From the NCBI GenBank assembly GCA_016200205.1, contig JACQFF010000070.1, positions 10,692-74,691 of the forward strand: a DNA stretch of 64,000 nt, given 5' to 3'. Origin of the DNA: Planctomycetia bacterium. Lineage in GTDB: Bacteria > Planctomycetota > Planctomycetia > Pirellulales > PALSA-1355. This document shows positions 56,194 through 60,528 of this stretch, piece after piece. Every line of letters begins with the position of its first letter. The first letter of the stretch is position 1. The notes under the pieces were generated by a model. It was given only the letters and a program-made list of their open reading frames with translations. It made no database searches and was not told where the DNA came from. Position numbers and translations under genes: made by a program.

Positions 56194-60528
<4,335 letters not shown>

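What the first reader, a model, noticed from the sequence alone, without database searches (positions are those of the whole stretch)
57556..57576. rpoC active-site motif reads NAEIDGD instead of the invariant NADFDGD
The beta-prime translation aligns residue for residue with the E. coli catalytic segment ([18 protein letters not shown]....G.AI.LHPLVC..(Y/F)[28 protein letters not shown]). However, the window encodes ..[22 protein letters not shown].. (aac gcc GAA ATC gac ggc gac).

The first Asp of the Mg2+-chelating triad is therefore Glu, and the following Phe is Ile. At the DNA level this is a CT->AA dinucleotide difference from gac ttc. NADFDGD is treated as universally conserved in multisubunit RNA polymerases.

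The rest of the gene is intact and canonical (Zn finger, bridge helix, trigger loop), so it does not look like a pseudogene. Possible explanations are a consensus or assembly error, a second functional rpoC elsewhere in the genome, or a genuine and unusual catalytic-site variant.
Basis: partly seen in the sequence, partly recalled or inferred. Interest (0 to 1): 0.7.

Follow-up and report, generated by a model that had tools for sequence, protein, structure and literature searches.

The report
Lone Glu/Ile reading in rpoC active site
The RNA polymerase gene in this window really does read NAEIDGD where all other sampled working enzymes read NADFDGD, but the change occurs in this one deposited contig only and is most likely a sequence error, not a new kind of active site.

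Summary
Window 57556-57576 encodes NAEIDGD in an intact 1444-aa rpoC that sits in the normal rplKAJL-rpoB-rpoC-rpsL-rpsG-fusA cluster. E457/I458 align with E. coli beta' D460/F461, and D460 binds both catalytic Mg2+ ions.

The change is private to this record:
- 129 of 129 close relatives have NADFDGD.
- 120 of 120 genome loci with the same flanks read GA(C/T)TTC.
- 129 of 147 diverse representatives have NADFDGD. The other 18 are degenerate, paralogue-like proteins.

The exact protein is in NCBI nr, so the variant is in the deposited sequence.

The gene is not decaying. Its lineage-specific nonsynonymous/synonymous ratio is 0.14, like its relatives. RpoB, EF-Tu, S12, S7 and the tRNAs are clean.

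A metagenome scan found four other D-to-E singletons. One of them has a 1482/1483-identical twin from another assembly that carries the canonical Asp.

No same-species sequence or reads were available. Most likely this is a sporadic sequence or assembly artefact (about 0.6). A genuine functional variant remains possible (about 0.2) and would be remarkable.

The parts
56194..60528 (+). rpoC (RNA polymerase beta' subunit), 1444 aa, GTG start, intact
   Evidence: Pfam RNA_pol_Rpb1_1 to Rpb1_5 all match; 95-96% identical to Pirellulales RpoC; the exact protein is in NCBI/nr, on one contig of 80,398 bp.
57556..57576 (+). Catalytic metal-binding motif, reading NAEIDGD instead of NADFDGD
57562..57567 (+). 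Codons GAA ATC (E457, I458). The variant bases are 57564 (A where relatives have C or T) and 57565 (A where relatives have T).
   Evidence: codon alignment with L121-L123; 116 GACTTC and 4 GATTTC among 120 loci.
56311..56316 (+). Junction CCT|AAC, where 9 bp (GAR ACG ATC = Glu-Thr-Ile) present in all relatives is missing. This lies in the beta' zipper loop.
   Evidence: 129/129 close relatives have ETI; 46/46 genome loci have it; none of the diverse representatives lacks these three residues.
56590..56592 (+). K133E (AAG->GAA, two base changes). Private among close relatives, at a column that is K/R in Planctomycetota.
   Evidence: In diverse bacteria the column is variable (R51, K48, Q17, S10, E6, D6), so this is probably a benign real substitution.
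57943..57945 (+). M584L (ATG->TTG). Private among close relatives.
   Evidence: Leu is the commonest state in diverse bacteria (L44, M18), so this is benign.
52400..56110 (+). rpoB (beta subunit), 1236 aa, directly upstream. Used as an internal control.
   Evidence: 0 private states at invariant columns; all 8 private residues lie at variable columns.

Best explanation
This is the ordinary, single, operon-encoded rpoC of an uncultured Pirellulales bacterium. The Glu-Ile reading at the first catalytic Asp and its neighbouring Phe is a feature of this one deposited contig. It is most likely a sporadic sequencing, assembly or consensus artefact, not a property of the organism's working polymerase.

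Shown:
- The variant is in the deposited sequence.
- It is absent from every relative sampled.
- The gene has otherwise evolved under normal purifying selection.
- D-to-E readings of this codon occur sporadically in public assemblies, and in one case a near-identical twin carries Asp.

Inferred: the true sequence is GAC TTC. The 9-bp ETI deletion 1.25 kb upstream may have the same kind of origin, for example a locally poorly supported stretch of the assembly.
For: 1. Private state. NADFDGD is found in 120/120 best database relatives (85-96% identity) and in all 9 further full-length members of the window protein's own 90% cluster. All 120 genome loci with the same flank read GA(C/T)TTC.

2. 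Unselected-looking pattern. Against 129 relatives, the window has 4 private substitutions at otherwise invariant columns and 3 at variable columns. The other sequences total 91 versus 638 (Fisher p = 0.007). There is also the ETI deletion. All of these lie in the first 1.75 kb of the gene.

3. No general relaxation. Lineage-specific nonsynonymous/synonymous counts are 18/126 = 0.14, against 0.09-0.17 in three relatives. Radical changes at the most constrained sites do not fit the selection regime the gene has experienced.

4. No compensating changes. RpoB has 0 private states at invariant columns. RpoC has no other private active-site change.

5. Precedent. A degenerate scan of metagenome contigs for [11 protein letters not shown] found four singletons in unrelated lineages. 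One of them (L127 = P0393) has a cluster-mate, P0400, from another source that is 1482/1483 identical and differs only by the canonical Asp.

6. Function of the residue. D460 ligates both Mg2+ A and Mg2+ B (PMC13198411). The motif is described as invariant from bacteria to eukaryotes (PMC2605557).
Against: - No reads and no same-species sequence could be found. A species-specific pattern scan gave 0 hits. Exact look-ups of RpoC, RpoB, S7, L7/L12 and L11 found nothing. The error was therefore never seen directly.
- The contig otherwise looks clean. It has long intact ORFs and about 82% coding. EF-Tu, S12, S7 and three tRNAs are normal. All 14 cluster genes are intact.
- Two radical artefacts 1.25 kb apart in an otherwise clean 64 kb is an awkward coincidence.
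- Both anomalies preserve the reading frame, and both amino-acid replacements are conservative. However, any transversion at those two bases gives Glu plus Ile, Leu or Val.
- GACTTC occurs 55 times elsewhere in the window, including DF codons in rpoB, so this is not a motif-systematic miscall.
- K133E needs two base changes and looks like real evolution at a locally constrained site.
Confidence: 0.6

Rival explanations
1. This is a genuine, fixed and functional catalytic-site variant. In this lineage the Mg2+-bridging carboxylate is supplied by Glu, and the neighbouring Phe has shrunk to Ile to make room for the extra methylene. The ETI deletion in the zipper would be a second real peculiarity of this beta'.
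For: - The exact protein is in the deposited record and was accepted into nr.
- The contig looks high quality.
- Both changes are conservative and adjacent, as expected for a coupled pair.
- A second in-frame private change in the same protein and a two-step K133E codon change suggest the protein really has evolved unusually in this lineage.
- Four other D-to-E readings exist in intact rpoC genes.
- Recombinant RNAP lacking the whole zipper can be purified and used in vitro (PMC3173786), so a zipper deletion need not be lethal.
Against: - No precedent was found. There were 0 Glu among 129 close relatives, 120 genome loci and the 129 canonical diverse representatives. The only Glu at this position, in P0225 (NTELGGD), is in a degenerate protein that has also lost the second Asp.
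- One of the four D-to-E singletons is contradicted by a 1482/1483-identical twin.
- There are no compensatory changes in beta or elsewhere in beta'.
- Purifying selection on the lineage is normal, and D460 binds both metals.
- From my own memory, not checked here: Asp-to-Glu at metal ligands of other polymerases, such as T7 RNAP D537/D812, costs orders of magnitude in activity.
Confidence: 0.2
2. This is a real but unfixed allele. A rare or recent deleterious mutation in the sampled population was captured by a low-coverage consensus.
For: The pair P0393/P0400 fits strain-level allelic difference as well as it fits error. Tandem base substitutions and short in-frame deletions are real mutational events.
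Against: A polymerase-crippling allele should not reach the majority of reads in a natural population. Two such alleles in one gene is even less likely. Without reads this cannot be told apart from technical error.
Confidence: 0.1
3. The operon copy has been released from selection because a second, canonical rpoC exists elsewhere in the genome, and it has just begun to decay.
For: Extra rpoC-like genes do exist in related planctomycetes. On L128, a degenerate rpoC-like gene (P0139, DVNFDGD, with no bridge-helix or trigger-loop motifs) lies directly downstream of a canonical rpoC. Eight of the 18 degenerate representatives are closest to a Pirellulales-type fragment, P0215.
Against: - In that precedent the extra copy is the degenerate one, not the operon copy.
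- The window gene's N/S ratio is 0.14, the same as its relatives.
- It is 95-96% identical to its orthologues and keeps the Zn finger, bridge helix and trigger loop.
- There is no other rpoC-like sequence in the 64 kb.
Confidence: 0.05

Closest known systems
Canonical bacterial RNA polymerase beta' (RpoC), e.g. chain 6j9e_D and E. coli beta' in the PDB
   Same: It has the full Rpb1_1 to Rpb1_5 domain set and aligns over residues 14-587 with E = 2e-248. The Zn finger, bridge helix and trigger loop are present. It sits in the rpoB-rpoC operon inside the ribosomal-protein cluster.
   Different: Glu replaces the first Asp of the triad (E. coli D460) and Ile replaces F461. Three residues (ETI) are missing from the zipper loop.
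Sporadic NAEFDGD readings in metagenome contigs (L124-L127)
   Same: These carry the same Asp-to-Glu change at the same codon, in otherwise intact rpoC genes. Each is a singleton.
   Different: They are single-base changes that keep Phe. They come from unrelated lineages, 44-64% identical to the window protein. For one of them a near-identical canonical twin exists; no such twin is available for the window.
Degenerate RpoC-like paralogues of Planctomycetota (e.g. P0139 DVNFDGD, P0144 DADFDGA, P0225 NTELGGD)
   Same: They are beta' homologues with a non-canonical metal-binding motif.
   Different: They are only 45-69% identical to the window protein and are degenerate in other conserved segments too: all of them in the N-terminal zipper region, and P0139 also lacks the bridge-helix and trigger-loop motifs. 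Where context was seen, the gene lies outside the normal position (L128). The window gene is the conserved orthologue at the normal locus.
Plant Pol IV / Pol V largest subunits
   Same: They are multisubunit-RNAP largest subunits in which residues around the metal A site have diverged (PMC2605557).
   Different: Even these fast-evolving enzymes keep all three aspartates (DFDGD) and need them for function. The window changes the first one.

Membership tests
Bacterial RNA polymerase beta' subunit (RpoC) | Rpb1 domain architecture (domains 1-5) over the full length | tested here: met
   PF04997, PF00623, PF04983, PF05000 and PF04998 all score far above their cut-offs.
Bacterial RNA polymerase beta' subunit (RpoC) | Orthologous position: directly downstream of rpoB, within rplKAJL-rpoBC-rpsLG-fusA | tested here: met
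   (tblastn of the L122 gene set against the window). Searches show the same order in relatives.
Bacterial RNA polymerase beta' subunit (RpoC) | Zn-binding Cys cluster, bridge helix ([14 protein letters not shown]) and trigger loop ([13 protein letters not shown]) | tested here: met
   (motif search in P0121).
Bacterial RNA polymerase beta' subunit (RpoC) | Invariant NADFDGD with three Mg2+-chelating aspartates | tested here: not met
   the motif reads NAEIDGD. The first Asp is Glu; the second and third Asp are present.
Bacterial RNA polymerase beta' subunit (RpoC) | Conserved beta' zipper loop (GEVKKPETINYRT) | tested here: not met
   ETI is deleted. It is present in 129/129 close relatives and 46/46 genome loci, and no diverse representative lacks a three-residue segment at this place.
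Pseudogene or decaying paralogue | Frameshifts, stop codons or a raised nonsynonymous/synonymous ratio | tested here: not met
   a single open frame. N/S is 0.14 against 0.09-0.17 in relatives; the distance to outgroups is the same as for sister sequences.
Degenerate RpoC-like paralogue (P0139 type) | Strong overall divergence, loss of bridge-helix and trigger-loop motifs, and a location outside the normal rpoC slot | tested here: not met
   the window gene is 95-96% identical to orthologues, keeps these motifs, and sits at the normal locus.
Assembly or sequencing artefact | The variant is not supported by the underlying reads or by an independent assembly of the same organism | not testable with these tools
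   No reads were available. No same-species sequence was found. Only indirect evidence exists.

The most novel reading that the evidence does not exclude
A free-living planctomycete runs its only multisubunit RNA polymerase with Glu in place of the metal-bridging first Asp of the catalytic triad. The Glu is accommodated by a coupled Phe-to-Ile change, and the beta' zipper is shortened. This would be the first natural cellular RNAP to break the NADFDGD rule.
Probability: 0.2. Interest if true: 0.85.

Novelty: not a real feature. Interest (0 to 1): 0.3.

Why it matters
If real, this would overturn the view that the three aspartates of NADFDGD are strictly invariant in working cellular RNA polymerases. 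It would also offer a natural test of how much geometric freedom the two-metal site has.

If it is an artefact, as I think more likely, the lesson is practical. Public MAG records and nr proteins contain occasional single-site corruptions even in the most conserved residues known. Such singletons need read-level confirmation before any biological interpretation.

Tried and rejected
- Exact look-ups. I searched for the window's RpoC, RpoB, S7, L7/L12 and L11 in other assemblies, hoping to read the site in an independent assembly. Nothing was on record. The S12 look-up found only short contigs of other species, 87-93% nt identical, that do not reach the site.
- Metagenome scan with a 60-nt species-specific pattern, leaving the two bases free: 0 hits.
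- Short-peptide query of the protein database to fish for other NAEIDGD proteins. It gave only 5 candidates, all short fragments, and was uninformative.
- Motif-systematic miscall of GACTTC: rejected, because GACTTC occurs 55 times in the window, including DF codons in rpoB.
- Local repeat confusing the assembler. A similar 15-mer (GCCGAGATCGACGG, also encoding AEIDG) lies 2 kb downstream in rpoC. It is too short to misplace reads and differs by one base, so I treated it as coincidence.
- Generally noisy contig: rejected.
- Accelerated or relaxed evolution of the whole gene: rejected.
- Literature search for Asp-to-Glu mutants of the triad (D460E and similar): nothing relevant in the held library. 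Dieci et al. 1995 (PMC394451) is not held.

Full report
**Observation**

Window 57556-57576 reads aac gcc gaa atc gac ggc gac. It translates in frame as NAEIDGD within ORF 56194..60528 (+), a 1444-aa protein. The context is [24 protein letters not shown].

The protein has the complete Rpb1 domain series. It aligns without local gaps to solved bacterial beta' chains (6j9e_D, E = 2e-248), with E457-I458 opposite the D-F of NADFDGD. These correspond to E. coli D460/F461. In a recent cryo-EM study D460 ligates both Mg2+ A and Mg2+ B (PMC13198411). The motif is described as invariant from bacteria to eukaryotic Pol I-III (PMC2605557).

The gene sits in the expected place: tRNAs, tuf, tRNA-Trp, secE, nusG, rplKAJL, rpoB, rpoC, rpsL, rpsG, fusA.

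**Is it private?**

- The 120 best database relatives (85-96% identity, mostly Pirellulales MAGs) all have NADFDGDQM. So do all full-length members of the protein's own 90% cluster.
Of these, 116 read GACTTC and 4 read GATTTC; none reads AA.
- Among 147 diverse 50%-cluster representatives, 129 have NADFDGD. The other 18 have degenerate motifs in divergent, paralogue-like proteins.
- The exact window protein is in NCBI/nr on one contig of 80,398 bp. The variant is therefore part of the public record, not something peculiar to this window copy.

**What else is odd?**

I aligned the window protein with 129 full-length relatives and listed its private states. Five events fall at columns that are otherwise 100% invariant:

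- a deletion of ETI from GEVKKP-ETI-NYRT (a clean 9-bp, codon-phased deletion);
- K133E (AAG->GAA);
- D457E;
- F458I;
- M584L.

All five lie in the first 1.75 kb of the gene. That makes four private substitutions at invariant columns against three at variable ones. The other 129 sequences total 91 against 638 (Fisher p = 0.007).

In a wider sample, K133 and M584 are ordinary variable columns. E occurs in 6 of 148 sequences at the first, and Leu is the majority state at the second. Those two changes look like benign real substitutions.

ETI, D457 and F458 remain unique. ETI is present in all 46 full-length RpoC from genome loci, and none of the diverse representatives lacks the three residues.

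[quoted passage not shown] Y47A in that loop strongly impairs growth in E. coli, although zipper-less enzyme can be purified and used in vitro (PMC3173786).

**Controls within the window**

- RpoB has eight private residues relative to 34 planctomycete loci. All are at variable columns and none at invariant ones.
- S12 and S7 have no private states at invariant columns.
- EF-Tu shows its usual GTP-binding sequence motifs ([17 protein letters not shown]; read from the translation).
- Three tRNAs are identical to those of relatives.
- All 14 cluster genes are intact.
- The window has long open frames and about 82% coding density.

The contig is not generally noisy. The anomalies are confined to the 5' 40% of rpoC.

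**Selection regime**

I counted lineage-specific codon changes against three close relatives. The window's rpoC has 126 synonymous and 18 nonsynonymous unique changes, a ratio of 0.14. Its relatives give 0.09-0.17, and rpoB gives 0.17. Its distance to outgroups equals that of its sisters. The gene is not a pseudogene or a relaxed copy. No other rpoC-like sequence lies in the 64 kb.

**Independent occurrences**

A species-specific 60-nt pattern found nothing in the metagenome collection. Exact look-ups of five window proteins found no other assembly of this organism. The closest relatives are about 9% divergent in DNA. The site therefore could not be read in a second copy of the same species.

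A degenerate pattern for [11 protein letters not shown] found four contigs, all NAEFDGD. They come from unrelated lineages (44-64% identity to the window protein) and sit in otherwise intact genes.

Two of these proteins were found in the protein collection. For one (L127 = P0393), a cluster-mate from another source (P0400) is identical at 1482 of 1483 residues. The single difference is the canonical Asp. This is a direct precedent: a Glu reading at this codon in a public assembly need not be a trait of the lineage.

**Mechanisms considered for an artefact**

- A motif-systematic miscall is excluded. GACTTC occurs 55 times in the window, including DF codons in rpoB.
- A similar 15-mer that also encodes AEIDG lies 2 kb downstream in rpoC. 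It is too short to explain a mis-assembly.
- I cannot name the technical cause. The inference rests on four points: the variant is private, the changes cluster at constrained columns, there is no compensation, and a precedent exists.

**Weighing**

For an artefact:
- The prior is against any working cellular RNAP without the first Asp.
- Constraint on the lineage is normal.
- No partner changes occur in beta or beta'.
- The excess of private states at invariant columns is local.
- The P0393/P0400 precedent exists.

For a real variant:
- The contig is clean elsewhere.
- Both anomalies preserve the frame.
- The replacements are conservative and adjacent.
- A second unique change lies in the same protein.

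The last two points are weaker than they look. Any transversion at those two bases yields Glu plus Ile, Leu or Val. The first-stage reader also selects for intact genes.

My estimates:
- about 0.6 for a sporadic sequence or assembly artefact;
- about 0.1 for a real but unfixed allele;
- about 0.2 for a genuine functional variant;
- about 0.05 for a copy released from selection by a second rpoC elsewhere.

**Comparison with known systems**

The gene is a member of the RpoC family by architecture, context and all other motifs. As sequenced, it fails two conserved features: the first Asp of the triad and the zipper tripeptide.

It is not like the degenerate RpoC-like paralogues I came across. Those are 45-69% identical to the window protein. 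P0139, the one examined in detail, lacks the bridge-helix and trigger-loop motifs and lies directly downstream of a canonical rpoC (L128). Even the fast-evolving plant Pol IV/V keep DFDGD.

**Verdict**

The novel reading is not excluded, and it can be tested cheaply with reads or PCR. Interest is 0.3 overall and 0.85 if the variant proves real.

Noticed in passing
window 56311-56316 (rpoC codons 40-41): A clean 9-bp in-frame deletion removes Glu-Thr-Ile from the invariant GEVKKP-ETI-NYRT of the beta' zipper. It is unique among 129 close relatives, 46 genome loci and 147 diverse RpoC sequences.
   Followed up: yes
window 60529-61755 (between rpoC and rpsL): The spacer here is about 1.2 kb, where relatives have about 50-280 bp. 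It contains a 156-aa ORF (60573..61043, +) with an HUH-like 'MPDHIHFF' segment and a weak match to Y1_Tnp / IS200-like transposase (Pfam E = 0.0015, below the cut-off). This looks like an insertion of a RayT/IS200-like gene into the rpoC-rpsL spacer.
   Followed up: partly
L128:1-6907 (ENA metagenome scaffold; P0139 at 2861-6907): A tandem arrangement. The 3' part of a canonical rpoC (bridge helix and trigger loop intact) is followed 540 bp downstream by a second, divergent rpoC-like gene. That gene has the motif DVNFDGD and no recognisable bridge-helix or trigger-loop motifs. Next come an amine oxidase and sbcDC. Of 147 aligned 50%-cluster representatives, 18 have degenerate metal-binding motifs, and 8 of these are closest to a Pirellulales-type fragment (P0215). 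This suggests a family of catalytically degenerate beta' paralogues in Planctomycetota.
   Followed up: partly
L124-L127 (metagenome contigs PVMS01103533.1, ODAI011063480.1, JABLTR010079984.1, SMVB01253443.1): Four unrelated, otherwise intact rpoC genes read NAEFDGD, a single-base Asp-to-Glu change at the same codon. The L127 protein has a 1482/1483-identical twin (P0400) with the canonical Asp.
   Followed up: yes
window 59577-59591: The same rpoC encodes a second 'AEIDG' (..VIAEIDGTV..) using GCCGAGATCGACGG. This is one base away from the variant site's GCCGAAATCGACGG. It is probably coincidence.
   Followed up: no
window 56590-56592 and 57943-57945: K133E (AAG->GAA, two base changes) and M584L are private among 129 close relatives. 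Both fall at columns that vary across bacteria, so they are likely real, benign lineage substitutions.
   Followed up: yes
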